From: a virus
Taxonomy: Duplodnaviria > Heunggongvirae > Uroviricota > Caudoviricetes
Virus record (IMG/VR): IMGVR_UViG_3300030339_000005
Direction: 5' to 3' (one strand)
DNA: 50,445 bases
Shown piece after piece: positions 9,728-22,841 of this stretch. A program made the translations under genes and the position numbers. The stretch's first letter is position 1. Every line of letters begins with the position of its first letter. Under the pieces are notes generated by a model, which ran no database searches, was not told the origin of the DNA, and saw only the letters and a program-made list of their open reading frames with translations.

Positions 9728-10063
9728 ATGGACACAGGATTATTGCTTACTATCAATCTAAAAGGACGTATTGGAGGTCCTTTGAAACACACAGACAAAC
9801 AACTTGTCACCGTTGATGTTGCTCCATTGGGTAAACGCCATCCAGAATGGATAACCAGAAAAATTAAGCATACTGACCGAGTAGTTACTTCTTGCTCACG
9901 TAAGCTTCATATTTCTGAAGAAGTTGTCAATAGCTGGATACATTCCGATTGCCCGCATTGGGAAAGAGTTGGAGCATGGAAAAACATGAATGAAGAGCAA
10001 AGAATGCTCTCCTTTATCAAAAACTTTGATGAAGGTCATGGTGTGACTTTTGAATTGGTTTAA
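9728..10063 (+). CDS. Hypothetical protein
   Basis: ORF. Confidence 0.6.
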   Translation: MDTGLLLTINLKGRIGGPLKHTDKQLVTVDVAPLGKRHPEWITRKIKHTDRVVTSCSRKLHISEEVVNSWIHSDCPHWERVGAWKNMNEEQRMLSFIKNFDEGHGVTFELV

Positions 10064-10082
10064 TCACTTTTATTCTAATCAT

Positions 10083-10340
10083 ATGAAATTCATCATCCGC
10101 TTTTTCAGGTCATTGCGATTCGAACCTAACTATTCAAAGAAGTTGGGCGGAATCAAAAAAGCCTTTACAGAAGCCCTTACTGCAGCCGATACGTTGGATG
10201 CAAAAATGGCCGATACTATTAAAGGCAAAACCGAAGCCATGTCTAGGCTTCAAACTCAAATTGACATAGTAGCTACTGTGAAGGGACAGAACGAAAAGTT
10301 CCGCCTTAACTTAAGTAAGCTTCTAGGTGAGTCTGAGTAA
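10083..10340 (+). CDS. Hypothetical coiled-coil protein
   Basis: ORF. Confidence 0.55.
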   Translation: MKFIIRFFRSLRFEPNYSKKLGGIKKAFTEALTAADTLDAKMADTIKGKTEAMSRLQTQIDIVATVKGQNEKFRLNLSKLLGESE

Positions 10341-10420
10341 GTTCACATACTTTAAAACTGGATTAAATATTAAATATTTTGAAAAATAGATATTTAGTAT
10401 TTTTTCCAGTTTTATTGTTG

Positions 10421-10428
10421 TACTTTTG
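10421..10428 (+). promoter_or_regulatory. Bacteroidota-type -7 promoter box
   Basis: TACTTTTG upstream of 10463, preceded by a long inverted repeat. Confidence 0.6.
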
Positions 10429-10462
10429 TAACCCTTTTGATTAGAAAATTTATAACATATCT

Positions 10463-10765
10463 ATGAATCCATTTATAGAAAATACAGGAGTTATTCCATG
10501 TGGTTGTAGTGACATTGCTCACCATATCCTATATGTGAAGGATCCAGATGACCCCACTATCTATGTTTATATGCAACTTACAGATCAACCTTGGTATCGA
10601 AGACTCTGGAGGGGTATTAAATATATCTTTGGTTATAAATGTCGTTTTGGCATGTATGACGAAATAATTGTAAATGAAGATAATATCCACTATTTTCTAG
10701 AGTGGAATGAACATATTGTTCTTAAAACAACTGAACAAAAACCAGATGCTCCTATAGAGGAGTAA
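10463..10765 (+). CDS. Hypothetical phage protein
   Basis: C.C....H; RLW.GIKYIFGYKCRFG..DE pattern. Confidence 0.65.
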   Translation: MNPFIENTGVIPCGCSDIAHHILYVKDPDDPTIYVYMQLTDQPWYRRLWRGIKYIFGYKCRFGMYDEIIVNEDNIHYFLEWNEHIVLKTTEQKPDAPIEE

Positions 10766-10812
10766 TCTGAACAAAAAGTTTTAGCTAATTACTAGATTAG
10801 TTAATTGAAGAT

Positions 10813-10885
10813 GGTGGGTTCATCTAGAGGCCTAGGATTTAAGATTTTCAATCTTACCACACGGATTCGAATTCCGTACCCACTA
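10813..10885 (+). tRNA. tRNA-Glu(TTC)
   Basis: Cloverleaf; TAAGA-TTTTCAA-TCTTA. Confidence 0.9.
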
Positions 10886-10942
10886 CTAGTAGTTTAATCT
10901 ATATTTTTCTTAATTTGAACTGTTTTATAATTTTATTTTTCG

Positions 10943-10950
10943 TACTTTTG
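10943..10950 (+). promoter_or_regulatory. -7 promoter box for HNH gene
   Basis: TACTTTTG 20 nt before ATG 10971. Confidence 0.6.
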
Positions 10951-10970
10951 TATATCAAAAAAAATATATT

Positions 10971-11597
10971 ATGAGTAAGTACAAAAAAGAAGAATTAGAA
11001 AAGTTAATTTTTGAAGATAAATTACCATACGACACCATTGGAGAATTATATGGTGTTACTGGAGCCTCAATTCGTAAGGCAGCAAATAGATTAGGCATAG
11101 AATTACCTAAACGAAGAGAAATTAATCCAACTGAAACCTTTAATAAGGGTGTACGTAAAGTTGGAGAAATATGTTGTGAAAATTGTGGACAACCACTAAA
11201 GTCACATCAATTAAGATTTTGTAGTAGGCAGTGTAAAGCAGATTTTGAATATACATCGTTTATTCTACGTTGGCAAAATGGACAGGAAGAAGGTCTTTCT
11301 GGAAAAGATGGAATATCTGGTTATATTGAAAAATATGTAAGAATAAAACATAATAATAAATGTCAAAAATGTGGCTGGAATGCTGTAAATGAAAGTTCAG
11401 GTAAAGTTCCATTACATATTCATCATGTTGATGGAGATTCACATAATAATCAAGAAGACAATTTAGAACTATTATGTCCTAATTGTCATAGTTTAACCGA
11501 TAATTATGGTAGTTTAAACAAAGAAAGTACAAGAACTTCTTTAAAAGAATTAAGAGAGGTGATTAAATCTCGTAACTTAGAAGAAGTAATTAAATAA
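10971..11597 (+). CDS. Free-standing HNH homing endonuclease
   Basis: CQKCG..LHIHHVDGDSHNN..DNLELLCPNCH; N-terminal HTH. Confidence 0.9.
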   Translation: MSKYKKEELEKLIFEDKLPYDTIGELYGVTGASIRKAANRLGIELPKRREINPTETFNKGVRKVGEICCENCGQPLKSHQLRFCSRQCKADFEYTSFILRWQNGQEEGLSGKDGISGYIEKYVRIKHNNKCQKCGWNAVNESSGKVPLHIHHVDGDSHNNQEDNLELLCPNCHSLTDNYGSLNKESTRTSLKELREVIKSRNLEEVIK

Positions 11598-11599
11598 AT

Positions 11600-11673
11600 C
11601 GTGGGGTAGTAGTAGTTGGTAACTCGCTGTGCTCATAACTCAGAGATCGCCGGTTCGAGTCCGGCCCCCGCAA
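11600..11673 (+). tRNA. tRNA-fMet(CAT), initiator-like
   Basis: C1:A72 mismatch, CAT anticodon; lacks the three G-C anticodon-stem pairs. Confidence 0.8.
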
Positions 11674-11682
11674 CTAATAAAA

Positions 11683-11756
11683 CGAATAGTAGGAAAGTTG
11701 ATTAATCCGCTACATTTGGGATGTAGAAATCGAAGGTTTGAGTCCTTCCTATTCGA
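11683..11756 (+). tRNA. tRNA-Pro(TGG)
   Basis: CTACA-TTTGGGA-TGTAG. Confidence 0.88.
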
Positions 11757-11795
11757 CAATTGTTTTTTAATTAGATCCATTTTTTAAACCAGATT

Positions 11796-12821
11796 ATGAA
11801 AAAACTTATTCAGAACAACACAACCTTCACTCTTGGAGAATTTACAGACATGCATGAAACACTTCCCGTTGGGAATTATGTTTTAAAGTTTGATGAACAA
11901 AAAGGAATCTTTTATCTTCAAGAACAAGAGCCTTTTGTGCTGCCTCCAAAGCTTTACGGAGACTTCTCTTTTATCGAAAGATGGAAGAAGTCTTATGTTG
12001 CTAATACGGGTAAAAACCTTGGTATTTTATTATCCGGTGTAAAAGGAACAGGTAAAACTATCTCTGCGCAGAAATTCTGCATAGAAATGGAAAAACCTGT
12101 AATCTTTATTACTGAGAATTACTCAGGTCCAGGATTTGAATCCTTTATCACAAGTTCTCTGTTCAATGATTGTATCATCTTTATTGATGAATATGAAAAG
12201 TTGTATCAAGAGGATCGCGATGAAGCTGAAAAGCTTTTGACTTTGATGGATGGTGTGTACAATACTCGCTTCATTTTCCTTTTGACAGTTAATGACCCTG
12301 ATGCTATTTCTGACAAATTGAAGAATCGTTTGAATCGTGTGAAATACCACAAAGTCTTTGAAACATTGGAAAAATCTATTATTGACGGTATCGTTAATGA
12401 TATGTTGGAAGATGAGCAGTTCAAAGATTCTATCTATGAATTCATTCTTCGCTTTGGATTCATTACTCCGGATATCTTGGTCACTTTGATTAAGGAAGTC
12501 AATTTCTTTAAAGAATCTGCTTTGGTCTGTGCTTCATACCTCAATTTGAGCTATGAAAGGGCTTATTACCAAATTAAGGTTGTTTACAAAGGCGAGCAAC
12601 ATTCTTGTGAATCTATGGAGTTAAATCCAATGGTTGATACATTCAGAATTAGCTTCTATGACGAAGTTCCGAAAGAGTTGACCAATACCTTGCCATATAA
12701 AATCAGGTTTAAAATGAGGGATTATCCATTTACTCGCACTGAATCTGGTTATACTTTTGAGTACAATTCAGATATTCAAATCCAGCTTTCTACACATCAA
12801 AGACGTGCATTAGTATTCTAA
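11796..12821 (+). CDS. AAA+ ATPase
   Basis: GVKGTGKT, IIFIDEYEK, NRLNR. Confidence 0.85.
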   Translation: MKKLIQNNTTFTLGEFTDMHETLPVGNYVLKFDEQKGIFYLQEQEPFVLPPKLYGDFSFIERWKKSYVANTGKNLGILLSGVKGTGKTISAQKFCIEMEKPVIFITENYSGPGFESFITSSLFNDCIIFIDEYEKLYQEDRDEAEKLLTLMDGVYNTRFIFLLTVNDPDAISDKLKNRLNRVKYHKVFETLEKSIIDGIVNDMLEDEQFKDSIYEFILRFGFITPDILVTLIKEVNFFKESALVCASYLNLSYERAYYQIKVVYKGEQHSCESMELNPMVDTFRISFYDEVPKELTNTLPYKIRFKMRDYPFTRTESGYTFEYNSDIQIQLSTHQRRALVF

Positions 12822-12824
12822 GTT

Positions 12825-13073
12825 ATGGAAATCGCTGAAGAAGAAGTAAAGAAGTCTCTTGGTAATATAGCTAATATCAAGCTTGGCTTAACTGAGCCGA
12901 TGAATATGAATTTTTCCTTGGAAACACTTCGTAATCTTACGCCCATGTGTGGAAAAAATGGTTCAGGAAAAACAATGGTCAATAAACTTATCTTCTTCTC
13001 ATCTATGGTAACGCTGCTAATAATCATAGAGATAATTATCGAGCAATCTGTTCTAATTGTGATTCACAGTTAG
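12825..13073 (+). pseudogene. Truncated ABC/AAA ATPase N-terminus
   Basis: Walker A GKNGSGKT, then runs into unrelated sequence at about 13007. Confidence 0.65.
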
Positions 13074-13165
13074 ATACATATAAATCTAAAAATAAAAATG
13101 GTGCACGAAGTTATTATAGATATAATAAAGAAAATGGTGGAATAATTGGAAATGCGCAGGAATAG
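13007..13165 (+). pseudogene. C-terminal remnant of an HNH endonuclease
   Basis: Alternative frame GNAANNHRDNYRAICSNCDSQLDTYKSKNK...*; no start codon. Confidence 0.75.
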
Positions 13166-13240
13166 CACGTAATTGGAAGCGTATCACTCTTCTAAAGTGA
13201 TGACTTTATGTCCTTGGGGGTTCGATCCCCTCTTCCTGTA
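13156..13240 (+). tRNA. tRNA-Arg(TCT) with long variable arm
   Basis: TCACT-CTTCTAA-AGTGA; variable stem GAC/GTC. Confidence 0.8.
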
Positions 13241-13250
13241 CACTATAAAT

Positions 13251-13322
13251 GGGCATATGGCCAAGTGGTAAGGCGTTTCTCTGCAAAAGAAATATGCGTC
13301 AGTCCGATTCTGACTATGCCCT
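13251..13322 (+). tRNA. tRNA-Cys(GCA)
   Basis: TTTCT-CTGCAAA-AGAAA; U73. Confidence 0.88.
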
Positions 13323-13327
13323 CATAT

Positions 13328-13401
13328 GCCGAAATAGCTCAGGTGGTTAGAGCGTTGGATTCATAACCCAGAGGTCACAAGTTCAAATCTTGTTTTCGGT
13401 A
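13328..13401 (+). tRNA. tRNA-Met(CAT), elongator-like
   Basis: Cloverleaf with TTCATAA loop. Confidence 0.85.
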
Positions 13402-13415
13402 CTAAATTTTTAACT

Positions 13416-13826
13416 ATGAAATTTTCATTTGATTTTGATAGCACACTCTCAAGGAGATCTGTGCAACATATTGCTAAGTTACTTATTAAAGCTGGACACG
13501 AAGTTCACATTGTAACTAGTAGATATGAAGATACTGCTAAGTATGTTATGGCTGATTGTATTGGACAATGTCATGTTGACTTATTCAGAGTATCTGATCG
13601 TTTAGGTATTAAACGAGAAAATATTCATTTTATGAATATGAAAGATAAATATCATTTCTTTTTAGAGAATCCTGATTTTGTATTTCATTTAGATGATGAT
13701 GTCAAAGAAATATTACTTATACAAGCTCAAACGGTTGTAATGGGAATATTATGTGATTATTCAGCTGAATGGAAAGATACAGTTGAGGAAGTATTTAAAA
13801 GACTTGAATTAGACCTGGCCCTTTAG
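13416..13826 (+). CDS. HAD-superfamily hydrolase
   Basis: FDFDSTL, IVTSR, K, HLDDD. Confidence 0.8.
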   Translation: MKFSFDFDSTLSRRSVQHIAKLLIKAGHEVHIVTSRYEDTAKYVMADCIGQCHVDLFRVSDRLGIKRENIHFMNMKDKYHFFLENPDFVFHLDDDVKEILLIQAQTVVMGILCDYSAEWKDTVEEVFKRLELDLAL

Positions 13827-13889
13827 TTCAATCGAATAGAACAGTAGACTACGGATCTGTAGATACGGGTTTGACTCCTGTAGGGGTCA
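13817..13889 (+). tRNA. tRNA-Arg(ACG)
   Basis: GTAGA-CTACGGA-TCTGT. Confidence 0.85.
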
Positions 13890-14116
13890 CAAAGAAAAAA
13901 GAATTTAGATTGAAGCAAACAGAACTTCAAGCCAATAACCCCTGATTCTTATTGGGATCAAGTTATAGCGAAGATGAAACCATATTTGCAGTATGGTTGG
14001 GTTTGTGTAAATATATGTTATATCCATACGGCTCTCAATTAGAGCATTGAACTCACTTGAAATTAATTCATATGAGGGATAGTATAATGTATTCACTGCA
14101 AGACTAAATTCTTCAC

Positions 14117-14190
14117 GGGGTATTAGCTCAGTCGGCTAGAGCAATTGCTTTGCAAGCAATAGGTCAAGGGTTCAAGTCCCTTATGCTCCA
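14117..14190 (+). tRNA. tRNA-Ala(TGC)
   Basis: G3.U70; ATTGC-TTTGCAA-GCAAT. Confidence 0.93.
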
Positions 14191-14396
14191 CAATACACGA
14201 ATCAAAGAGATCATCACTGGCAATAAGTTTCCATGGTAGGTGCAACTTTTACAAACTAAATGCATTTAGTCCGATTCGTGTATTTCCAAGCATCTCCAAG
14301 ATTTTCTGAGAATAATTGCAAATCGTATGTTGCATTGGGTTCAAATCCCTTCTTGGGGACATTACAGCACGTTGCTGTATTAAAAATCGTAAAATT

Positions 14397-14474
14397 ATGA
14401 AGAAAACGTAGATTTTCTTTGCTCGAGGTTCTCCTTGTTGTTTTAAATTAGAAAACTTAGTAATAACAATTTAA
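14397..14474 (+). promoter_or_regulatory. Candidate leader uORF MKKT(TAG)IFFARGSP...
   Basis: AAAATT-ATG start context; TAG at codon 5; readthrough frame continues to TAA 14474, 11 nt before the next ATG. Confidence 0.45.
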
Positions 14475-14485
14475 ATTAAAACACA

Positions 14486-14791
14486 ATGAAAACTTTAAAA
14501 GGAGAAATAAAACAAATGTCAAAAGAACAAACGTTCTTAAAAGATCAAAGGAAGTCAGTGTATAATAAAAGTGAACGAGTAATGGAACCTTGGAAAGCTT
14601 CTTACAAACATAACTCAAATCGTGAAGATTTGCGTTTGATGTATGCAGCTTACGGTATCATGAGAGGAAGAACTTTTAGTCAAATTGAAAATACGCATCC
14701 AGAGGAGTCACATCCTTTGAGAGCATTTCAGAGAGATATTGACAAGTTAATTGAACAGTATGAACAAGAGGTTGTACATATTAGTGAGTAA
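14486..14791 (+). CDS. Hypothetical protein upstream of Pth2-like gene
   Basis: R..Y.AYG..RG+.F.QIE pattern; overlaps next gene. Confidence 0.7.
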   Translation: MKTLKGEIKQMSKEQTFLKDQRKSVYNKSERVMEPWKASYKHNSNREDLRLMYAAYGIMRGRTFSQIENTHPEESHPLRAFQRDIDKLIEQYEQEVVHISE

Positions 14792-15053
14792 TTCTTTAGA
14801 GCCAATCTATGCCTGTGTACAGGGCGGACACGCAGTAGCACAGTGGTTGTTGGACAATAAGGATACTCAAACATGGGATAACAATTACTTGATATATTTG
14901 TCCGCAGATATCGAGAAATGGTTATTTAAACTAAACTGTAAACAATTACGCTATTCTGTATTTAGGGAACCCGATCTCGGGAATGTGCCTACAGCAATAG
15001 CCATTGAATCAGACGGAACATTGTTTCGTAATTTGAGATTAATGGGTGAATAA
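14760..15053 (+). CDS. Peptidyl-tRNA hydrolase 2-like protein
   Basis: LYILV...L....ACVQGGHAVA and FREPDLGN..TAIA motifs. Confidence 0.75.
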   Translation: MNKRLYILVSNSLEPIYACVQGGHAVAQWLLDNKDTQTWDNNYLIYLSADIEKWLFKLNCKQLRYSVFREPDLGNVPTAIAIESDGTLFRNLRLMGE

Positions 15054-15217
15054 CCCAAAAAGTAGTAACTCTGAATTGACAGGGTAAATAATAACGAGGT
15101 CGTGGGATATGTTACGTACAGTATGGCATATTAGGAAAAGGTAGATGAAACAAGAGCTGTAAGACACGTGGAATCTGGTAATTATTGTTTGGGGAAACCC
15201 TATTATTTTTTTTAAAT

Positions 15218-15291
15218 GGTCTTTTAGCTCAGTGGCCCAGAGCGACGGCTTCTAGTCCCGTGCGTCGTGGGTTCGAATCCCATAGAGACCA
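15218..15291 (+). tRNA. Amber suppressor tRNA (anticodon CTA)
   Basis: Canonical cloverleaf; anticodon arm ACGGC-TTCTAGT-CCCGT (C31:C39 mismatch), CTA at 34-36. Confidence 0.75.
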
Positions 15292-15335
15292 CAAGGTTTT
15301 CGTCCCTCCTCCTTTCCACAAGTGAGGGACACTAT

Positions 15336-15410
15336 GCACTTTTAGCTCAGCTGGTTCAGAGCATATCCCTTACAAGGATGGGGTCGGGGGTTCGAATCCC
15401 TCAAGGTGTA
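15336..15410 (+). tRNA. tRNA-Val(TAC)
   Basis: TATCC-CTTACAA-GGATG. Confidence 0.92.
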
Positions 15411-15539
15411 CAAATTTTATACTAAAGTTATGAAAAAGAAAGATTCTTTAGTCAAGTTTATATTTATGCATATTGCAATATATTTACTTGTAATTGGCTT
15501 GGTGTTATTCGCAGTTATTTATTTATTAAGTTTAAAGAC

Positions 15540-15746
15540 ATGAAGATTAACATGCTTTTATATTTAATTCCTATCTTTGGAATTGGATATTTAATTTACA
15601 TGGCCAATAAATATGGGTGGACAACAAAGATACAGAATTCCTGGTGGATGATGTGGCCGTCTACTCTTTGGCATAGCGCAACGACTTGGTATCTAATGGT
15701 ATCTATAGTCCTACAACAATTTAATCCACTATTGTGGATTCACTAA
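15540..15746 (+). CDS. Small membrane protein
   Basis: Hydrophobic, Trp-rich ORF (all TGG). Confidence 0.55.
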   Translation: MKINMLLYLIPIFGIGYLIYMANKYGWTTKIQNSWWMMWPSTLWHSATTWYLMVSIVLQQFNPLLWIH

Positions 15747-15762
15747 CATAGTTAGTAACAAT

Positions 15763-15837
15763 GCTCCTCTAGCTCAGTTGGTTTAGAGCAACAGACCTTT
15801 AATCTGTGGGTCCTGGGTTCAACTCCCAGGGGGAACA
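15763..15837 (+). tRNA. tRNA-Lys(TTT), C33 variant
   Basis: ACAGA-CCTTTAA-TCTGT. Confidence 0.85.
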
Positions 15838-15856
15838 CAAACTTAATTTAAAAACG

Positions 15857-16090
15857 ATGGCAACATTAAAAGAACTTGTAAAAGATGGAAAGGCAACATT
15901 CAGTCATGCAATTGCTGGAGTATTGTATTACAGATTGGAAAGTCCAGTAGGTAATTATCAATTTCCAATTGACATGAATGATCGTGCGGATGTAGGTACG
16001 ACTACATTTGTTGCTGAGTACAAGGCTATTACGCTTATGCGATATATTCGCAAAGCAATGGATAGTGAAAATTTAATTAAAATTTTGTAA
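15857..16090 (+). CDS. Hypothetical phage protein
   Basis: G.LYY...FPI...D.G..TF....KAITLMRYIRK pattern. Confidence 0.65.
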   Translation: MATLKELVKDGKATFSHAIAGVLYYRLESPVGNYQFPIDMNDRADVGTTTFVAEYKAITLMRYIRKAMDSENLIKIL

Positions 16091-16091
16091 T

Positions 16092-16340
16092 ATGACAGAA
16101 TTAGAAAAATTTCAGTTAGTCAACACATGTAATACATGTAAAGAACTCGAAGATGCTATTATCTTGATTGGACAAGAGAATGATGGTATGCTTCAAGGAC
16201 GTACTCATTCCTTTAATGCAGAGAGTATGGCAAAATGTGTGGAACCTATTGTTAATAATGCAATGTGGCCTAATTACTTAACTAGGTCTTATGGTATTAG
16301 ACAACAAGCTTTGTATCTTAAGTATTACTTAAACTTGTAA
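16092..16340 (+). CDS. Hypothetical protein
   Basis: ORF with LTR.YGIRQQA. Confidence 0.6.
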   Translation: MTELEKFQLVNTCNTCKELEDAIILIGQENDGMLQGRTHSFNAESMAKCVEPIVNNAMWPNYLTRSYGIRQQALYLKYYLNL

Positions 16341-16346
16341 CAAAAC

Positions 16347-16429
16347 GCGTACTTAGTCAAGTGGCCGACGACGGTGGTCTCCAAAACCATTAGGGCAACC
16401 TCACGTGGGTTCGAATCCTACAGTGCGTG
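16347..16429 (+). tRNA. tRNA-Trp(CCA) with long variable arm
   Basis: GTGGT-CTCCAAA-ACCAT; variable stem AGG-GCAA-CCT; G73. Confidence 0.85.
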
Positions 16430-16445
16430 CTTAAAGAATGAAAAG

Positions 16446-16745
16446 ATGAATAGAGAAACTCACGGTTTTACCGATGAAATGTTAGAGCTATACAGAAAAG
16501 TATTTCCAGAGCAGAATGCTTCTGCAGAACAACTAGAATATTTTGCTTGGCCAGAACTATTTTGCAGTACATCAGGTCCTTATGGAGGAATCGGTGGTGC
16601 AGTAATGACAACATTTACTGTTGAAGCTTTTTATAATGGTGTATATGGAACTACACTATATGTATGTTTAAGTACTTATCAAAAAGGTACAACGAAATTT
16701 GAACCCTTTAAAGTCCTTTCTTCTGTATGGACACGCTTTACTTAA
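16446..16745 (+). CDS. Hypothetical protein
   Basis: WP..F.STSG..GGIGG..MT pattern. Confidence 0.6.
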   Translation: MNRETHGFTDEMLELYRKVFPEQNASAEQLEYFAWPELFCSTSGPYGGIGGAVMTTFTVEAFYNGVYGTTLYVCLSTYQKGTTKFEPFKVLSSVWTRFT

Positions 16746-16747
16746 CT

Positions 16748-16942
16748 ATGAGAGAAATAATCCTACAACGAATTGAAGAGATGAAAGAACATGAAAGAGA
16801 TTTTGCACCAAGTTCAATGAGGTGGCAAATGACTCTTATCAATGGAGTTCATATCTCTGTATGTGATTTTAGTAAGTTAACTGATGTAGAATTAGTAACT
16901 GCTTTTGAAAGAATTTGTCAACGTTATTATAGACAGTATTAA
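16748..16942 (+). CDS. Hypothetical protein
   Basis: ORF. Confidence 0.5.
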   Translation: MREIILQRIEEMKEHERDFAPSSMRWQMTLINGVHISVCDFSKLTDVELVTAFERICQRYYRQY

Positions 16943-16943
16943 G

Positions 16944-17216
16944 ATGAAATCAAAACACATTGAAGCAGGGCCTTGCCCTACTTGCGGTAAAAAATTGGAT
17001 GGCTTGACCAATCCAGTAGATGATGACTTGGACCAACAACCAGGTGATGTTTCCATTTGTTTCCATTGTGGTACAATTTTAGTCTTTAATGAAAACTTAG
17101 AGCTTGTGCCTTGTTCAGATGAAAATTTAGAAGAGTTAGATGAAGATTCAAGAGTACTAATCTTTGCGATTAGGGAAGCAATTTTAGCCCAGAGAAATAA
17201 TAGAACAGGTAATTAA
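16944..17216 (+). CDS. Zn-ribbon protein
   Basis: CPTCG...PGD.SICFHCG. Confidence 0.65.
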   Translation: MKSKHIEAGPCPTCGKKLDGLTNPVDDDLDQQPGDVSICFHCGTILVFNENLELVPCSDENLEELDEDSRVLIFAIREAILAQRNNRTGN

Positions 17217-17265
17217 AGAATCAGCAATTAATTTAATTGCAGAAGAAAGAAAACGTCAAATTGAG

Positions 17266-17493
17266 GTGGAAGGATGGACAGCTGAGCATGATGATGAATA
17301 CATTCATGGAGAGTTGGTTACAGCAGCAGTTTGTTATGTTTTAGAAGATCATACTTTTGCTCAAGCCTTATGGCCTTGGGATCTTACATGGTGGAAACCC
17401 TCTCCAGATGACCGTATTAAAGAACTCAAAAAAGCAGCTGCTTTGATAGCTGCAGAAATTGATCGTTTAATTAGATTAGAAGATAAAAAATAA
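17266..17493 (+). CDS. Conserved phage protein (helical, possibly MazG-like); frame extends upstream to about 17197 without ATG
   Basis: AEERKRQIEVEGWTAEHDD...WPW...WKP...KAAALIAAEIDR. Confidence 0.6.
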   Translation: MEGWTAEHDDEYIHGELVTAAVCYVLEDHTFAQALWPWDLTWWKPSPDDRIKELKKAAALIAAEIDRLIRLEDKK

Positions 17494-17852
17494 TGAAAAA
17501 GACATTGCTCTGGCTAGATGATGCAAGGAATCCTCTTGAAGATGATTGGCTTGTATTTAGTCCTATTGGTAAAGATGTCCATGTAGAGTGGGTAATGACC
17601 CAAATGGAGTTCCAAGATTGGATTATGATTAACGGATTACCAGATGCTATATGTTTTGATCATGATTTAGGTACTGGAAATGGAGATGGTTATGAATGTG
17701 CAAAATTTTTATGTGAATACTGTTTTGTACACAAATTACCATTACCTTTGTATTCTTCACAATCAGCGAATGCTGTAGGACGTGAAAATATTGTTTCTTA
17801 TCTTGAAAACTATAAGAAACATTGTGAACTACCTAAGCCGTCTGATGGTTAA
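17493..17852 (+). CDS. Cyclic-phosphate-processing receiver-domain protein
   Basis: LWLDD.R.P, ICFDHDLG, GYECAKFL, SAN.VG..NI. Confidence 0.75.
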   Translation: MKKTLLWLDDARNPLEDDWLVFSPIGKDVHVEWVMTQMEFQDWIMINGLPDAICFDHDLGTGNGDGYECAKFLCEYCFVHKLPLPLYSSQSANAVGRENIVSYLENYKKHCELPKPSDG

Positions 17853-17973
17853 CTGACGGATGCCTGAGAGCACTGCTCTCGTACATTTTGATGCTTTTGA
17901 ACTCTTAAAATAAAAGCACATGGCACGTTTACTTGTGTAACAACCGTAACCTTTAGAAAGTTACGGTTTACTT

Positions 17974-18046
17974 GGACTCTAAGCTAATCTGGTGAAAGCG
18001 TGTGCCTGAAGAGCACGAGAGTTCGGATCGAAACCGGAAGAGTCCA
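17974..18046 (+). tRNA. tRNA-Phe(GAA)
   Basis: TGTGC-CTGAAGA-GCACG; atypical T-loop ATCGAAA. Confidence 0.85.
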
Positions 18047-18047
18047 C

Positions 18048-18518
18048 ATGCCAAGTTTAATAGACAAATTTAACGATGATGAATTTAGATTATTAGTAGC
18101 AGAAAGTATTTCTATTACTGATATTGCTAAATCACTTGGGTACAAGTCTAAGGGAGGTGCTGTAACAGGTGTTATTAAAAAGAGAATAGATAAATTAAGC
18201 GTAAATACATCCCATTTCTCAAAATACTCTATAAAAAATACAGAGAATAGAAATAAACCTTTAGATGAAATATTAGTTGAAAATTCAACATATACTAACA
18301 ATACATCACTAAAGAAAAGATTGTTATCAGAAGGACTAAAAACATATGCATGTGAAGTTTGCAATATATCTACTTGGTTAAGTAAACCATTATCTTTACA
18401 ATTAGACCCTATGAATGGAATAAATACTGATAATAGGTTAGAAAATTTACGATTAATATGTCCTAATTGTCATTCACAAACAGAAACTTTTTCTGGTAGG
18501 AATGCATCACATAATTAA
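18048..18518 (+). CDS. Free-standing HNH endonuclease, probably inactive
   Basis: CEVC..LQLDPMNG...DNRLENLRLICPNCH; the catalytic His of the D-H motif is replaced by Pro. Confidence 0.8.
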   Translation: MPSLIDKFNDDEFRLLVAESISITDIAKSLGYKSKGGAVTGVIKKRIDKLSVNTSHFSKYSIKNTENRNKPLDEILVENSTYTNNTSLKKRLLSEGLKTYACEVCNISTWLSKPLSLQLDPMNGINTDNRLENLRLICPNCHSQTETFSGRNASHN

Positions 18519-18523
18519 TATAA

Positions 18524-18552
18524 AGTAGGTGGGTTCGATCCCGCATTTCCCA
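18524..18552 (+). pseudogene. Orphan 3' tRNA fragment
   Basis: GTGGG-TTCGAT-CCCGC T-arm plus ATTTCCCA; no 5' half. Confidence 0.55.
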
Positions 18553-18575
18553 CAAACACCTTTAATTGAATGAAA

Positions 18576-18862
18576 ATGAAAAAAACTATTGTTAGTATTG
18601 TGTCTTGGTTTGTTCTTGTTCAGCTCTTGCGCTGAAAAGAAAACACTTAAAGACAGAAATGGAAAAGAATTTCTGGCTCGTCCTTATGGATTATTGAATC
18701 CTAGTGCTGAAGCCGATAGCGTAGTCTATGAAGCAAGTATGGGCACCATTCTTTGTAGTGTTGTGTTTGTAGAAACAATCTTTGCTCCGGTTTGGGGTTT
18801 GGGGTTTAGGTTGAGGGCTATACGAACCTGTGGGTTATAAAATACCTGATAAGGAAAAATAA
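18576..18862 (+). pseudogene. Frameshifted lipoprotein gene
   Basis: Lipobox FSSC; +1 A in A7 run after ATG; 7-nt duplication TTTGGGG; corrected end PVWGLG(TGA)GLYEPVG. Confidence 0.6.
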
Positions 18863-18897
18863 TGCTTAGTGGGGGAGCTTTGTATAGCCCCACATCT

Positions 18898-18982
18898 GGA
18901 AATGTGGCAGAGTGATCTATCGCGCTGCTCTTGAAAAGCAGAGGACCTACGGGTTCCGGGGGTTTGAATCCCTCCGTTTCCG
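18898..18982 (+). tRNA. tRNA-Ser(TGA)
   Basis: CTGCT-CTTGAAA-AGCAG, long variable arm, G73. Confidence 0.9.
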
Positions 18983-19006
18983 CAAAATTAACTTAATCTA
19001 TATTTT

Positions 19007-19486
19007 ATGGCTTATAGCTATCATGAAAGAACAATATCTAACTTAGGATATACTATAGATAAAGAAGGTAATTGTTATAATTCTAAGGGTAAGTTACTTA
19101 AAGGAACTATAGCTAATACTGGTTATCGTGTTGTTAGCACAACAATTGATGGCAAAACTATAAAGATAGGATTACATAGATTTCAAGCATATCAGAAATA
19201 TAATGATGAAATCTATAAAGAAGAAAATGAGGTAAGACATTTAAACGGTATTAGAAATGATAATTCATGAGATAATATTGAAATAGGTACTCATTCAGAT
19301 AACATATTAGATATTCCTCAAGATATCAGAATTAGGGTTGCAAAAAATGCGTCTACGAAGTATGATCAAAAATTAGTTGATGAAATAAAACATGATAAAG
19401 AATTAGGCCCTTCTTATAATCAAATTATGGTTAAATATAATATTAGTAGTAAAGGGACAATTAGTTATATTATTAATCAACGATAA
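19007..19486 (+). CDS. HNH homing endonuclease with one in-frame TGA (19268)
   Basis: VRHLNG...DNS(TGA)DNIEIGTHSDN; frame open to TAA 19486 with C-terminal HTH. Confidence 0.8.
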
Positions 19487-19489
19487 ACT

Positions 19490-19575
19490 GGAGAAGACAA
19501 CCTGTGGGGAATAGGGCTTGCCTGCTAAGCAATGCGCTCATTTACATGAGTTCGTGTCGGACACGAGTTTCTCCG
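19490..19575 (+). tRNA. tRNA-Ser(GCT), non-canonical D and T arms
   Basis: GGAGAAG/TTTCTCC-G acceptor, TTGC-CTGCTAA-GCAA, long variable arm, T-loop GTCGGAC. Confidence 0.7.
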
Positions 19576-19691
19576 CATATAGAAAGAAGGGAGTAACAAC
19601 GCAAGTTGACTTTGAAAATCCAACCCGATAATATTGCTCTCTCTGTGAATTCTTTTAATCCACGTTTCTTTGTCAAGTAAATGGGAGTCAT

Positions 19692-19765
19692 GCGCATTTA
19701 GCTCAGTTGGTTAGAGCACCACACTGATAATGTGGGGGTCCCAAGTTCAAGTCTTGGATTGCGCA
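19692..19765 (+). tRNA. tRNA-Ile(GAT)
   Basis: CCACA-CTGATAA-TGTGG. Confidence 0.92.
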
Positions 19766-19782
19766 CAATTAAAACCTTAGAT

Positions 19783-19932
19783 ATGGGAACATTTATAGTT
19801 ATTGGAATGTTTATGTTGTTTTTTATACTATTTTTTCGAGGTATGGAGAACATAGGTCGGTATAATCATGCCGAAGATAAAGCAATCGAAAAAGAATTAG
19901 AGGAGTTAAATAAATTAAAAATTAAAGAATAA
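19783..19932 (+). CDS. Small membrane protein
   Basis: N-terminal TM segment; TAATG coupling. Confidence 0.5.
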   Translation: MGTFIVIGMFMLFFILFFRGMENIGRYNHAEDKAIEKELEELNKLKIKE

Positions 19933-20198
19933 TGACGCTAGGAGAAATTCACCAGATAATGAGAGAAGCCGGCTTCACTTATTTTGATGGTTATAGTGGT
20001 ACAGACGATAAGGTTTATATCACTTTTTCAAAAGGTTACAATGGACGAGGAGACGCGATTGAATTTCACTTTAATCCTGGTTCTATAACCATTAAAACCT
20101 ACTATCAAGATGAAGATAGTAAAGACTACTTAGAGTACACTCATTATAATGCTTCAATCGCATTGAAGAATATATTGAATGCGCATAAGAGTAGTTAA
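19932..20198 (+). CDS. Hypothetical protein
   Basis: ORF. Confidence 0.55.
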   Translation: MTLGEIHQIMREAGFTYFDGYSGTDDKVYITFSKGYNGRGDAIEFHFNPGSITIKTYYQDEDSKDYLEYTHYNASIALKNILNAHKSS

Positions 20199-20205
20199 AT
20201 TCATC

Positions 20206-20279
20206 GGGCCTGTAGCTCAGTGGTAAGTAGCAACTGACTCATAATCAGGAGGTCGGGGGATCATTACCCTTCGGGCCCA
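20206..20279 (+). tRNA. tRNA-Ile2(CAT), lysidine type (inferred)
   Basis: GGGCCTG acceptor typical of Ile2; CTCATAA loop; T-loop ATCATTA. Confidence 0.75.
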
Positions 20280-20293
20280 CAAATTTTAAAAAT

Positions 20294-20710
20294 ATGAAAG
20301 AAAAATTTACACCTTACGAATTAGCAATAAAGTTAAAAGAAGCTGGCTTTGATGAAGGAGTTTTTGCTTACTTCAATACAACATCTGACACGCCTTCTGA
20401 ATTACAATTTCCAGAATATGGTGGCGAAGTTGATAATTGGAATCAAACGACACATATTGTTTCAGCTCCATTATGGCAGCAAGCAATAGATTGGATTAGA
20501 GAAAAACATAAATTAATGATAGATTCACCAAAACCAGACCAATGGAATCAGGATAGCTGGTCTGTTAGAATTGAGAGTATGGACAAAACGATTGTCCTTG
20601 AAGCATATGTTGATCAAGAATATTGGAGAATATATAGATGTCACAAATCATATCAAGAAGCAAGAGAACAATCTATTCTAAAAGCATTAGAACTAATTAA
20701 TAAAGAATAA
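20294..20710 (+). CDS. Hypothetical phage protein
   Basis: LA.KLKE.GF...AP..Q.A..W.REKH...YEEA pattern. Confidence 0.65.
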   Translation: MKEKFTPYELAIKLKEAGFDEGVFAYFNTTSDTPSELQFPEYGGEVDNWNQTTHIVSAPLWQQAIDWIREKHKLMIDSPKPDQWNQDSWSVRIESMDKTIVLEAYVDQEYWRIYRCHKSYQEAREQSILKALELINKE

Positions 20711-20827
20711 TATGAGATACTTTTTAGGAACATCAATGTTTTTAATGATTTACTTCGGACAACCTCGATATCCTCAAAATCTCGTGGTTCATGTTGAAAA
20801 TCATATTCTTATTTCCGAATAAGATAT

Positions 20828-20910
20828 GCCTGTATAGCAAAGTGGCCAAACGCGTCTGACTGTAACTCAGATTCCTTACGGATTCAGAGGTTCAAATCCT
20901 TTTGCAGGCA
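20828..20910 (+). tRNA. tRNA-Tyr(GTA)
   Basis: TCTGA-CTGTAAC-TCAGA, variable arm. Confidence 0.9.
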
Positions 20911-21100
20911 CAAACACTCAGAGGGTTAACTGAGTTATCAAAGAGTATCATAAAGTGAGTTATCTCTTTTACGATCAAAAAATAGCTATATTAGGACACA
21001 TTTGAGAATTAAGTCGGGTTGTTCCCGCAGGTCGAATTACCTGGGTCAATTATTCAAATTAAAATGTGTAGCAAGAGTAATTAACTTGCTACACACACTT

Positions 21101-21173
21101 GCCCCTGTAGCTCAGTGGCCAGAGCGGCACTTTTGTAAAGTGCGGGCCGGCGGTTCGATCCCGTCCAGGGGCT
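21101..21173 (+). tRNA. tRNA-Thr(TGT)
   Basis: GCACT-TTTGTAA-AGTGC. Confidence 0.93.
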
Positions 21174-21190
21174 CAATTAAATTTATAGAT

Positions 21191-21427
21191 ATGGAAAAGA
21201 CAATTGAAGAAGTAAAGAAAGAATTACTTGATAATGTTATTATAACGACGCCAAGTAGAGCTTTCGCAGGAGGGCAGAGTTGTGGAATGGTGGATTGGTC
21301 AGTTAAACTTTATCAAGGGGATTTAGACATTACAATTTCTATTGGAAATTTCCATAGCATTCGTGAGAATAAAAGTTTGGCTATGACTTTAATGGAATTA
21401 GCTATTGATGAAGTAATTAAAGATTAA
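21191..21427 (+). CDS. Hypothetical protein
   Basis: ORF with GGQSCG. Confidence 0.55.
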   Translation: MEKTIEEVKKELLDNVIITTPSRAFAGGQSCGMVDWSVKLYQGDLDITISIGNFHSIRENKSLAMTLMELAIDEVIKD

Positions 21428-21428
21428 T

Positions 21429-21857
21429 ATGGATAATGATTTAAAAACCTCAGTTGAATGGCAAAGATTGTGTCCTTCTCCTAAAGTTATTGGCTTTGAG
21501 GGATGGAATGGTGAAGACCAATGGCAAAATGTTGAGATGTCTTATCTAGAATATCAACAAAGAGTGTTTCTAAGTACTTGTGCATTTATTAGTTTATCGC
21601 CATCAATAAGAGTTATTCCAGAGTATGGAACTCCAGGAGGTCTGGTATCAGGAACTGAATTATTAACACAAATTCTGGAAAGAGATGCTAGGACATCCCA
21701 AATAATGGCTAATACTGCTGTTATGAGCCCTCCAGATTTTCTAGGATTATTACACGATGTTCCAGCACCATCAAGAACAGATCCTCAAATTATTTCTAGT
21801 GCTGAGAGAAAAAGGATTAGAGAACAAATAGAAAGATTATGTGGGGACAGGGAATAA
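21429..21857 (+). CDS. Hypothetical protein
   Basis: ORF. Confidence 0.55.
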   Translation: MDNDLKTSVEWQRLCPSPKVIGFEGWNGEDQWQNVEMSYLEYQQRVFLSTCAFISLSPSIRVIPEYGTPGGLVSGTELLTQILERDARTSQIMANTAVMSPPDFLGLLHDVPAPSRTDPQIISSAERKRIREQIERLCGDRE

Positions 21858-22137
21858 AAGGAGATTTTGATGTTCTTCAATTTTTGAAGGACGAGGGTTA
21901 TTTAGTTGATGAAGAAGTCGATGAAATTGTAGATGACGATGAAAATGACGATTATTGGGAAAAATTATGGGACGTGAGTTCATAGAAAAACAATTTAGAA
22001 GTGAAGTTGAGATGCTTAAATTTATTCAAGATCCCAAAAGAGTTGCTAAAGTGAGAGAAAAGTATCCATCTGATAAATATGTATCAAGAATGGATTTTGA
22101 TAAGAGACAGTTAATTATTACAGAGAAATAAGTAGAT

Positions 22138-22221
22138 GCCTAAGTGGCGAAATTTGGTTATACGCGTATGCCTTAGGAGCATATGTCTTGCGACGTGTCG
22201 GTTCGAGTCCGACCTTGGGTA
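22138..22221 (+). tRNA. tRNA-Leu(TAG)
   Basis: TATGC-CTTAGGA-GCATA. Confidence 0.92.
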
Positions 22222-22232
22222 CTTAAAACCTT

Positions 22233-22622: not shown

Positions 22623-22671
22623 AAATTGCTCGAGGAGAAGCATATAGGATGAAAATCTCATCTCCCAACTC

Positions 22672-22744: not shown

Positions 22745-22841
22745 CAATAAGGTTCAGAATTCAACACTGGAAAACTAATTAAATTTATTCCAGGTCTTAG
22801 CGTTTACGCAAGTAAGAATAAAAACAAAGCCTTATCTCCAT

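What the first reader, a model, noticed from the sequence alone, without database searches (positions are those of the whole stretch)
14397..15291. Candidate amber-sensing module: MKKT-TAG-...RGSP leader, Pth2-like operon, ncRNA and amber suppressor tRNA
Seen: a well-contexted ATG (AAAATTATG) opens ATG AAG AAA ACG TAG. Readthrough gives MKKT*IFFARGSPCC..., ending 11 nt before a two-gene unit whose second gene is Pth2-like. The only CUA-anticodon tRNA in the window lies 165 nt after that gene. Established: R-A/G-x-P motifs (SecM RAGP, ApdA/ApdP RAPP) stall ribosomes; minigenes such as lambda bar cause peptidyl-tRNA drop-off that Pth must clear. Inference: the leader reports RF1 activity versus suppression, or peptidyl-tRNA load, and tunes Pth expression. 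That would give the suppressor a local regulatory role rather than genome-wide recoding. RGSP is not itself a proven arrest motif. I know of no description of such a circuit.
Basis: partly seen in the sequence, partly recalled or inferred. Interest (0 to 1): 0.85.

Follow-up and report, generated by a model that had tools for sequence, protein, structure and literature searches.

The report
Stop-codon-gated leader sensing suppressor tRNA
A tiny upstream reading frame with an early TAG stop codon, followed by a ribosome-stalling motif, appears to switch on two phage genes only when the neighbouring amber suppressor tRNA reads through that stop, and the same design recurs in dozens of unrelated phages.

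Summary
All evidence is computational.

- **The locus.** Window 14397-15292 holds a leader (MKKT-TAG-IFFARGSP...), gene A (unknown helical protein), gene B (Pth2 fold) and tRNA-CUA.
- **Conservation.** I examined 172 phage or metagenome loci carrying B homologues, which fall into 89 clusters. B almost always sits beside a suppressor tRNA.
- **Two gate forms.** The operon is gated by a stop codon at codons 2-10. In 42 lineages the gate lies in a leader uORF ending in [R/K]-x-P-P, RGSP or RASP. In 35 clusters it lies in frame at the start of B itself.
- **Covariation.** The gate codon matches the neighbouring anticodon. CUA goes with TAG in 58 of 66 clusters, UUA with TAA in 3 of 4, and UCA with TGA in the 1 case.
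- **RNA pairing.** The motif codons pair with the start region of A. Modelling a ribosome on RGSP frees A's AUG; modelling one stopped at TAG does not.
- **Host genome.** It is a 178-kb crAss-like phage that recodes TGA but uses TAG as a true stop, so this leader is the only evident amber target.
- **Not supported or unknown.** The proposed "ncRNA" is not supported. What A and B do remains unknown.

The parts
14397..14474 (+). Leader uORF: MKKT-TAG-IFFARGSPCCFKLENLVITI-TAA
   Evidence: Read directly from the sequence. Homologous leaders occur in close relatives: L173 has MKKHT#IDPRGSPNCF... and L012 has MKKVFL#IFN$GSP**. Analogous leaders occur in 42 lineages.
14409..14411 (+). Gate codon TAG, followed by A (a purine at +4)
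   Evidence: The gate codon matches the anticodon of the adjacent suppressor tRNA across clusters. The +4 base is a purine in 80 of 84 gates.
14424..14435 (+). CGA GGT TCT CCT = R-G-S-P, a RAPP-like arrest motif
   Evidence: The motif is conserved at peptide level. Arg is CGA here and AGA in L173; Pro is CCT here and CCA in L173. Across lineages all four Pro codons and both Arg codon families are used. RGSP is listed as a proven SecM-type arrest motif in PMC10987492.
14414..14507 (+). Predicted hairpin: the arrest-motif region (14414-14452) pairs with the start region of gene A (14470-14507). AUG 14486-14488 pairs with the Pro codon 14433-14435.
   Evidence: The MFE fold is -20.6 kcal/mol. Blocking 14418-14450 (ribosome on RGSP) leaves -3.0. 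Blocking 14394-14424 (ribosome at TAG) keeps the hairpin at -13.2. The duplex energy lies at percentile 0.0 against control windows. Across 39 lineages the median percentile is 0.04. The fold z-score alone is not significant.
14486..14791 (+). Gene A: a 101-aa helical protein of an uncharacterised phage family (QRKxV ... MYAAYGxxRGR..QIE)
   Evidence: It follows the leader in all class-1 loci. It has no Pfam match. The model has pLDDT 85.5 and three long helices, with no informative fold match. Its 95 homologues are all 'hypothetical'.
14760..15053 (+). Gene B: a 97-aa Pth2-fold protein (peptidyl-tRNA hydrolase 2-like). Its start overlaps the end of A.
   Evidence: Profile against PDB Pth2 gives E 4.4e-7. 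Foldseek top hits are all Pth2. PHROG 3668 'hydrolase' matches at 4.7e-7. No Pfam hit at E<0.1.
15054..15217 (+).
   Evidence: No Rfam match. Fold z-score is -1.0. No similarity to other loci. Against L173 only the first ~60 nt and the last ~30 nt are conserved. A terminator-like hairpin lies at 15190-15202.
15218..15292 (+). tRNA with anticodon CUA (amber suppressor), with a mismatch at position 31:39
   Evidence: ARAGORN and Rfam tRNA at 55 bits. In L173 the acceptor stem changes with compensation, while the anticodon arm and its 31:39 mismatch are kept.

Best explanation
The 26-codon leader at 14397-14474 is a translational switch that reads the activity of the neighbouring amber suppressor tRNA.

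**Proposed mechanism.** Ribosomes start at the leader ATG.
- If release factor wins at TAG (codon 5), a four-residue peptide is released. The downstream hairpin stays closed. That hairpin pairs the RGSP codons with the start region of gene A, so A stays off. B stays off too, because its start overlaps the end of A.
- If tRNA-CUA decodes TAG, the ribosome runs on to R-G-S-P, a RAPP/SecM-type arrest motif, and pauses there. Its footprint melts the hairpin and exposes A's AUG. A is then translated, and B through coupling.

Expression of A and of Pth2-like B is therefore made proportional to the balance of suppression against termination.

**Other forms of the same logic.** Many other phages carry a stop codon at codons 2-10 of B itself. 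The gate can also be TAA or TGA where the adjacent tRNA is an ochre or opal suppressor.

**Shown by sequence and comparison:**
- the anatomy of the locus
- its conservation across phage lineages
- covariation of gate codon and anticodon
- peptide-level conservation of the motif
- predicted pairing with the start region or Shine-Dalgarno sequence of A

**Inferred:**
- that the ribosome actually stalls
- that the output is translational rather than transcriptional
- the role of A and B

**Likely role of B.** The likeliest role is a tRNA-ester hydrolase that deals with products of suppression or arrest. These would be peptidyl-tRNA from read-through, non-stop or arrested ribosomes. Feedback control of the suppressor itself is an open alternative.
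For: 1. **Linkage.** Of 172 loci with B homologues (89 clusters at 80% identity), nearly all with enough flank carry a suppressor tRNA on the same strand, usually 12-400 nt downstream.
2. **Leader conservation.** 42 lineages have M-x(0-9)-STOP-x(2-16)-[R/K]x(PP/SP/FP/AP) upstream of A. A stop codon follows the motif directly in 27 of them. Enrichment is 37 hits in 32.9 kb against 14 in 895 kb.
3. **Covariation.**
   - CUA is nearest in 66 clusters, and 58 of them have a TAG gate.
   - UUA goes with a TAA gate in L010, L074 and L104.
   - UCA goes with a TGA gate in L045.
   - TAG makes up only 22% of stop triplets in the background.
4. **Class-2 gates are position-specific.** 35 clusters each have one TAG at codons 2-10 of B and none in 3454 body codons.
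5. **Peptide-level constraint.**
   - All four Pro codons and both Arg codon families are used.
   - A basic residue sits at -3 or -2 in 37 of 42 leaders.
   - L173 differs from the window by synonymous Arg and Pro changes.
6. **RNA switch.**
   - The motif window pairs with the start region of A better than control windows do. The median percentile is 0.04, and 54% of 39 lineages fall at or below 0.05.
   - The stall-to-start distance is mostly 52-65 nt.
   - Window-specific footprint folds behave as the model requires.
7. **Arrest motifs.** RGSP, RAPP and RGPP are established arrest motifs (PMC10987492, PMC12992588, PMC10951233).
8. **No other amber target.** The genome does not otherwise need tRNA-CUA. 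TAG is a terminal stop in 31 of 188 ORFs. A genome scan finds only one other TAG-gated regex match on the + strand, at window 3187, which I judged implausible, plus a few minus-strand matches that I did not examine.
Against: - There is no experimental or expression evidence of any kind.
- I defined the leader motif regex after seeing the first examples, and many loci are related to one another.
- The CCNCC Pro codons are also the anti-Shine-Dalgarno or anti-start strand. Part of the 'PP' conservation could therefore be RNA-level rather than peptide-level.
- The window hairpin is AU-rich, and its overall fold z-score is not significant.
- These leaders are very short, 8-25 residues at the motif. 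Known RAPP-type arrest peptides are longer and carry export signals.
- The closest IMG/VR relative, L012, has TGA in place of the Arg codon and a frameshift in A. The module can therefore decay.
- Seven CUA clusters show no detectable gate.
- A weak terminator-like hairpin lies on the RGSP codons. The output could be transcriptional.
Confidence: 0.78

Rival explanations
1. The input is the same, but the output is transcriptional. The ribosome that has read through TAG sits on a small terminator-like hairpin (CGAGG-TTCT-CCTTG plus TTGTTTT, 14424-14447), or shields the RNA from Rho. Transcription then continues into A, B and tRNA-CUA. That would give positive autoregulation of the suppressor.
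For: The terminator-like element lies exactly on the RGSP codons. In class-2 loci, an untranslated B mRNA upstream of the tRNA would be a classic target for Rho polarity. The tRNA lies downstream on the same strand in almost all loci.
Against: The hairpin has only 5 pairs and a broken U-tract. Three such sites were found where 1.2 +/- 0.9 are expected. In most other lineages the conserved partner of the motif codons is the Shine-Dalgarno or start codon of A, 52-65 nt away. That points to translational control. A second terminator-like site lies between B and the tRNA.
Confidence: 0.12
2. The leader is a minigene that reports release-factor activity or peptidyl-tRNA hydrolase capacity rather than the suppressor. 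Drop-off or slow termination at the 4-codon ORF, or release of the arrested RGSP ribosome by B, sets A/B expression. This would make it a 'monitoring substrate' for B, in the way SecM monitors SecA.
For: Very short ORFs are prone to peptidyl-tRNA drop-off, as established for lambda bar minigenes. Every known RAPP-like arrest peptide monitors the product of the downstream gene (PMC7897499, PMC10987492). The downstream gene here has a Pth2 fold.
Against: Matching of the gate codon to the adjacent suppressor anticodon (TAG/CUA, TAA/UUA, TGA/UCA) is not expected if only RF or Pth capacity is sensed. Class-2 loci have the gate but no arrest motif and no gene A. The two ideas are not exclusive, because read-through always reflects suppressor against RF.
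Confidence: 0.07
3. It is an RNA-only element. The conserved UAG-purine and CCUCC would be parts of a structured leader that binds the tRNA anticodon directly, like a T-box, or of a plain anti-Shine-Dalgarno hairpin. The leader would not be translated.
For: CCNCC is complementary to GGAGG or to AUGG in the start region of A. A purine after the specifier codon is also a T-box feature (from general knowledge).
Against: - An in-frame ATG lies 1-10 codons upstream of the gate in nearly all clusters.
- The motif is always in the xCN-CCN frame.
- A stop codon directly follows the motif in 27 of 42 leaders.
- The conserved R/K lies outside the helix and is encoded by both codon families.
- Class-2 gates are in frame with B.
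- No T-box or other Rfam family matches at E<=1.
Confidence: 0.03
4. Chance or ordinary recoding. The mini-ORF is fortuitous, or the TAGs simply reflect code 15 (TAG=Gln) use in these phages.
For: ATG-x-x-x-TAG is common in AT-rich intergenic DNA. Several homologous loci come from TAG-recoded phages such as Lak, and some B genes have internal TAGs.
Against: Enrichment is about 70-fold, and TAA/TGA versions are absent. 35 TAGs lie at codons 2-10 and none in 3454 body codons. The gate covaries with the anticodon. This genome uses TAG as a stop.
Confidence: 0.01

Closest known systems
RAPP-like ribosome arrest peptides (SecM RAGP/RGSP, ApdA/ApdP RAPP, the RQH family with RGPP/RSPP) that open a hairpin over the downstream start site
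   Same: All are small uORFs ending in R-[AG]-[PSG]-P close to the stop. In all of them the motif region pairs with the translation initiation region of the next gene. The window motif RGSP is identical to that of Mannheimia SecM (PMC10987492).
   Different: The phage leader has no signal peptide or membrane segment, and only 8-25 residues. The input is not a pulling force from Sec or YidC. It is whether a stop codon placed before the motif is read through. The downstream genes are a Pth2-like protein and an unknown helical protein next to a suppressor tRNA.
Leader-peptide attenuation that senses charged tRNA (trp, his, pheST leaders), and drug-dependent leaders (ermCL, cat, cmlA)
   Same: The position of a ribosome on a short leader decides between alternative RNA structures. 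The signal is the supply of one particular tRNA.
   Different: In those systems scarcity of a sense tRNA stalls the ribosome. Here, presence of a nonsense suppressor lets the ribosome reach the regulatory site. The gate is a stop codon.
Phage stop-codon recoding with suppressor tRNAs (Lak and crAss-like phages; Borges et al. preprint 10.1101/2021.08.26.457843; Zeta crAss-like phage Lera, PMC12386605)
   Same: The host is a crAss-like phage with a standard-code early block and a recoded late block. It carries both SUP-TCA and SUP-CTA tRNAs, and an 'aminoacyl-tRNA hydrolase' gene lies in the tRNA region, as described for Lera.
   Different: Those papers treat in-frame stops as a delay for late or lysis genes. 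They leave the 'non-functioning' CTA suppressor unexplained. Term searches of those two papers turned up no leader, gate or link to the hydrolase.
Synthetic UAG-in-leader circuits from genetic code expansion (reviewed in PMC6412442; I saw the title and abstract only)
   Same: An amber codon in a regulatory leader makes gene expression depend on an orthogonal suppressor tRNA.
   Different: Those circuits are engineered. This would be a natural and widespread counterpart.
Archaeal and eukaryotic peptidyl-tRNA hydrolase 2 (Pth2; PDB 2zv3, 1xty, 1q7s)
   Same: B shares the fold, and the sequence profile aligns over the full length.
   Different: B is shorter. It lacks the Gly-Lys-Gly-Lys loop and has F-x-E-P-D where Pth2 has D-A-G-x-T. 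It is phage-specific, with only 1 hit in 185,579 prokaryote genomes, and that contig is a megaphage. Its activity is untested.

Membership tests
Pth2 (peptidyl-tRNA hydrolase 2, PF01981), for gene B | Significant sequence similarity to Pth2 | tested here: met
   A profile of 9 B homologues against PDB gives 2zv3 Pth2 at E 4.4e-7, covering residues 5-100 of 102. It also gives 24bt at 1.1e-5 and Bit1 at 4.5e-3. The single sequence gives no Pfam hit at E<0.1, so B is a distant member.
Pth2 (peptidyl-tRNA hydrolase 2, PF01981), for gene B | Pth2 alpha/beta fold | tested here: met
   The model has pLDDT 89.8. Foldseek ranks 1-14 are Pth2 structures plus the Pth2-like protein Atu0240, with TM 0.63-0.70 and probability 1.0.
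Pth2 (peptidyl-tRNA hydrolase 2, PF01981), for gene B | Catalytic residues and hydrolase activity on peptidyl-tRNA | tested here: inconclusive
   The alignment shows the Q..HA motif is kept (Q21, H24, A25 are invariant). The G-K-G-K loop is missing, and D-A-G..T is replaced by E-P-D....T. Activity cannot be tested with these tools.
RAPP-like ribosome arrest peptides (SecM / ApdA / ApdP / RQH) | R-[AG]-x-P type motif at or near the C-terminus of a small uORF | tested here: met
   The window has RGSP. 42 lineages have RGSP, RASP, RGPP, RAPP, RSPP, xKPP or RGFP, and 27 of them are followed directly by a stop. These motifs are listed as arrest motifs in PMC10987492.
RAPP-like ribosome arrest peptides (SecM / ApdA / ApdP / RQH) | The stall site is coupled to an RNA structure that masks the downstream start | tested here: met
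   This is a prediction only. The pairing is stronger than in control windows in most of 39 lineages. The window's AUG pairs with the Pro codon, and footprint-constrained folds behave as required.
RAPP-like ribosome arrest peptides (SecM / ApdA / ApdP / RQH) | N-terminal export or membrane signal, so that arrest is released by Sec or YidC (a monitoring substrate) | tested here: not met
   The leader has 4 residues before the gate and 13 residues (read-through position included) up to the motif. There is no hydrophobic segment. Leader lengths to the motif are 8-25 residues.
RAPP-like ribosome arrest peptides (SecM / ApdA / ApdP / RQH) | Demonstrated ribosome stalling | not testable with these tools
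   This needs toeprinting, PURE translation or ribosome profiling.
Phage code-switch (stop-codon recoding) modules | Suppressor tRNA whose codon occurs in frame in late or lysis genes | tested here: not met
   This is not met for TAG. There is no internal TAG in long ORFs, and TAG terminates 31 of 188 ORFs. It is met for TGA with tRNA-UCA in the minus-strand block at 70-160 kb.
T-box riboswitch | Match to the T-box covariance model | tested here: not met
   cmscan of window 10000-26000 at E<=1 returns only tRNAs and chance antisense hits.

The most novel reading that the evidence does not exclude
The leader, A, Pth2-like B and the suppressor tRNA together form a self-contained feedback controller of nonsense suppression that moves between phages as a cassette. 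The gate measures suppressor against release-factor activity. B acts back on the system in one of two ways. It could hydrolyse the ester of the suppressor's aminoacyl- or peptidyl-tRNA, or it could release the arrested leader ribosome. Suppression would then be held at a set point, or latched on as a genetic-code switch. The leader would be the first 'monitoring substrate' for a tRNA hydrolase. It would also explain why phages without TAG recoding keep an amber suppressor.
Probability: 0.3. Interest if true: 0.95.

Novelty: new variant of a known kind. Interest (0 to 1): 0.88.

Why it matters
Phages that change the meaning of stop codons are common in gut and environmental viromes. How the switch is sensed or controlled is unknown. 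Several crAss-like phages carry an amber suppressor with no apparent codon to read, and PMC12386605 raises this explicitly as an open question.

A natural regulatory leader whose input is read-through of a stop codon would give that tRNA its first defined in-genome target. It would tie a Pth2-like enzyme and a new protein family to suppressor biology. It would also add nonsense suppression to the short list of signals sensed by arrest peptides.

The design is a natural counterpart of engineered amber-gated circuits. It is simple enough to test directly with reporters.

Tried and rejected
- **Nucleotide searches.**
  - Megablast of 13400-16400 against phages gave no match.
  - tblastn of gene A against phages gave no match.
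- **Pfam.** Neither A nor B gave a significant hit.
- **Fold and atlas searches for A.** Foldseek PDB, VIA-align wide, ESM Atlas by shape and Atlas by features gave only generic helical hairpins or chance-level scores.
- **A-B complex prediction.**
  - I resent it with code-11 rows only, and it returned 'no verdict' with score 0.00. That is neither support for nor evidence against binding.
- **The search for related loci with the A alignment.** The alignment had no conserved stretch to search with.
- **'ncRNA' in 15054-15217.**
  - There is no Rfam hit, the z-score is -1.0, and there is no cross-locus similarity. Only the ends are conserved against L173. I rejected it as a defined ncRNA.
- **Amino-acid identity of tRNA-CUA.**
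  - Alignment with the phage's Gln, Trp, Lys and Glu tRNAs and with other CUA tRNAs was uninformative.
- **Back-up stops after TAG-terminated genes in this genome.**
  - None were seen. The median distance to the next stop is 15 codons, against 11 for TAA-terminated genes (p 0.57).
- **Other amber-gated starts in this genome.**
  - A weak excess appeared, 7 of 27 TAG-bounded ORFs against 10 of 159. The individual cases were unconvincing.
- **Literature.**
  - Full-text searches found no paper linking suppressor tRNAs, Pth or Pth2 and leaders or arrest peptides in phages.
Full report
**1. The observation**

The sequence is as described.
- The ATG lies at 14397 in the context AAAATTATG. It is followed by AAG AAA ACG and TAG at 14409-14411.
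- In frame after that come ATT TTC TTT GCT CGA GGT TCT CCT (IFFARGSP) and 13 more codons, ending at TAA 14472-14474.
- That stop is 11 nt before the ATG at 14486.
- Two overlapping ORFs follow, A (14486-14791) and B (14760-15053).
- ARAGORN and Rfam place the only CUA-anticodon tRNA at 15218-15292.

**2. Genome context**

The window lies in a 178,320-bp contig with a roughly 180-bp terminal overlap and 32.5% G+C.
- Its DNA polymerase is closest to crAss-like phages, at 35-41% identity to cr108_1, IAS virus and crAss001.
- Few starts have a Shine-Dalgarno-like sequence, 15 of 185.
- The plus-strand block at 0-70 kb, which includes the window, reads well in the standard code.
- The minus-strand block at 70-160 kb is open only if TGA is a sense codon. 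ORF coverage rises from 0.6-0.8 to 0.95-1.0.
- A tRNA-UCA lies at genome position 161242-161337.
- TAG is an ordinary stop. It ends 31 of 188 ORFs and is never internal to a long ORF.

This matches the Zeta crAss-like phage Lera. That phage has both SUP-TCA and SUP-CTA, recodes TGA, and has an amber suppressor described as apparently non-functional (PMC12386605).

**3. Gene B is Pth2-like; gene A is unknown**

- B gives no Pfam hit on its own.
- A profile of homologues aligns end to end with M. jannaschii Pth2 at E 4.4e-7.
- Its model (pLDDT 89.8) finds only Pth2 structures at the top of Foldseek.
- It keeps Q..HA. It lacks the GKGK loop and has E-P-D in place of D-A-G, so catalysis is unproven.
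- A is a three-helix protein (pLDDT 85.5). It has no Pfam family, no informative fold match and only 'hypothetical' relatives.

**4. A conserved module**

tblastn found B in Lak megaphages and others. IMG/VR holds 223 relatives, and metagenomes hold more. Among 185,579 prokaryote genomes there is one hit, and that contig is a mis-binned megaphage.

I analysed 172 loci, which fall into 89 clusters at 80% B identity. A suppressor tRNA lies on the same strand in almost every locus with enough flank. It is usually just downstream of B. Gene A precedes B in about half of the loci.

**5. The gate**

Upstream of A, every class-1 locus has a mini-ORF with this layout: M, then 0-9 residues, then a stop codon, then 2-16 residues ending in a basic residue and Pro-Pro, Ser-Pro or Phe-Pro. 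The next stop often follows directly.
- Examples are MKH#VNPVPP*, MA#INIRGPP#, MKHL#INFGRASP*, MT#VSRIRPP*, MK#INNYLNQQFRGPPW and the window's MKKT#IFFARGSPCC.
- In 35 other clusters the stop sits in frame at codons 2-10 of B itself, for example MK#ITNRLYVV and MKET#INCHSKLITV. There is no TAG in the remaining 3454 codons of those genes. This is a positional gate, not general recoding.
- The motif is about 70-fold enriched in the target regions, and its TAA and TGA versions are absent there.
- The base after the gate is a purine in 80 of 84 cases. That is the context known to favour suppression.

**6. Covariation with the tRNA**

- Where the nearest suppressor is CUA (66 clusters), the gate is TAG in 58.
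- Where it is UUA, the gate is TAA in three of four clusters. These are L010 (MT*VHKLTTV), L074 (MTHFL*MPRGPPF) and L104 (MKDQ*VQIRGSPYS, plus MKNT*VN in B).
- In L045 the neighbouring tRNA is UCA and the leader is MKRL$TRNKGPD.

This is the strongest argument that the gate is read by the adjacent tRNA.

**7. Peptide or RNA?**

Both levels appear to be under constraint.
- The Pro codons are the 5' strand of a helix. Its 3' strand is the Shine-Dalgarno (GGAGG) or the AUGG(AA) start of A.
- The motif window pairs with the start region of A better than control windows do. The median percentile is 0.04, and 54% of 39 lineages fall at or below 0.05.
- The distance from motif to start is mostly 52-65 nt.
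- The frame is nonetheless fixed, always xCN-CCN.
- All four Pro codons and both Arg codon families are used.
- The basic residue lies outside the helix and is present in 37 of 42 leaders.
- The close relative L173 (A 81% identical) reads MKKHT#IDPRGSPNCF..., with AGA for CGA and CCA for CCT.
- RGSP (Mannheimia SecM), RAPP, RGPP and RSPP are documented arrest motifs (PMC10987492, PMC12992588, PMC10951233).

**8. The window's own switch**

- The MFE fold pairs 14414-14452 with 14470-14507, and A's AUG pairs with the Pro codon of RGSP.
- Blocking the footprint of a ribosome on RGSP leaves -3.0 kcal/mol and a free start.
- Blocking the footprint of a ribosome at TAG leaves the hairpin intact at -13.2 kcal/mol.
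- The unconstrained fold is not more stable than shuffles, with a z-score of -0.66. This rests on comparison rather than energy.
- A weak terminator-like hairpin also lies on the RGSP codons. A transcriptional output therefore cannot be excluded.

**9. What it does**

The supported part is the logic: A and B are made only when the cognate stop codon is read through.

The purpose is inferred. B is a Pth2-type protein. It could recycle peptidyl-tRNA produced by read-through, non-stop or arrested ribosomes. It could release the arrested leader ribosome, which would make the leader a monitoring substrate. Or it could act on the suppressor tRNA itself as feedback. B associates with amber, ochre and opal suppressors alike. 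That argues against a function specific to RF1.

**10. What is not supported**

- The 164-nt spacer is not a recognisable ncRNA. Only its ends are conserved against L173.
- No expression data could be obtained.
- The A-B complex prediction gave no verdict.

**11. Novelty**

Full-text searches found no description of a stop-codon-gated leader, or of a Pth2-suppressor tRNA module, in phages. Engineered analogues exist (PMC6412442, title and abstract only). I class this as a new variant of leader or arrest-peptide control with a new kind of input.

Noticed in passing
whole genome (G000:C1); window = 8980-59424: The late minus-strand block at 70-160 kb needs TGA read as a sense codon. A tRNA-UCA lies at genome position 161242-161337, next to a PhoH-like gene. 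Early genes avoid in-frame TGA. The phage therefore has two suppressor tRNAs but recodes only TGA.
   Followed up: partly
window 14290-14372: A degenerate tRNA-like element lies just upstream of the leader. It has a TTGCAA loop, a GGGTTCAAATCCC T-arm and an 8-bp acceptor-like stem. ARAGORN and Rfam do not call it. It aligns to the 3' half of tRNA-Ala, and the close relative L173 has a real tRNA-Ala at that place.
   Followed up: partly
window 14192-14284: A 12-bp closing stem (AATACACGAATC...GATTCGTGTATT) encloses a structured spacer after tRNA-Ala. The 205-nt region 14192-14396, which contains it, folds with a z-score of -2.47.
   Followed up: no
L012:2615-2662 and 2729-3030: The closest IMG/VR relative has the leader MKKVFL#IFN$GSP**, with TGA where the window has the Arg codon CGA. 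Its gene A is split by a frameshift. Either the module is decaying there, or both suppressors are needed.
   Followed up: partly
L044 (B gene, about 2995-3290): TGA sits at the position of the otherwise invariant Trp39 of B, and a tRNA-UCA lies nearby. This is direct evidence for TGA=Trp in that phage. L013, L018, L059 and L004 have an internal TAG at a shared site in B, aligned to Gln or Asp in the others.
   Followed up: partly
L065, L011, L063, L067, L113, L116, L145: Variants of the gate. In some, the TAG that ends a full-length upstream gene serves as the gate (L011 ...LENMK#VRRIRAP$, L065 ...EEWTDE#VARPP#GQSRGPP#). Other leaders have two successive TAGs (for example MT#VTGFT#VQVFKPP$).
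   Followed up: partly
window 15066-15085 and 15190-15215: Two small hairpins are conserved between the window and L173. CTCTGAATTGACAGGG lies right after the stop of B. TGGGGAAACCCTA plus a T-run, which is terminator-like, lies just before tRNA-CUA.
   Followed up: partly
genome-wide: ORFs bounded upstream by TAG more often have an in-frame ATG 1-6 codons before that TAG (7 of 27) than ORFs bounded by TAA or TGA (10 of 159). Further amber-gated starts are possible, but the individual cases were unconvincing.
   Followed up: partly
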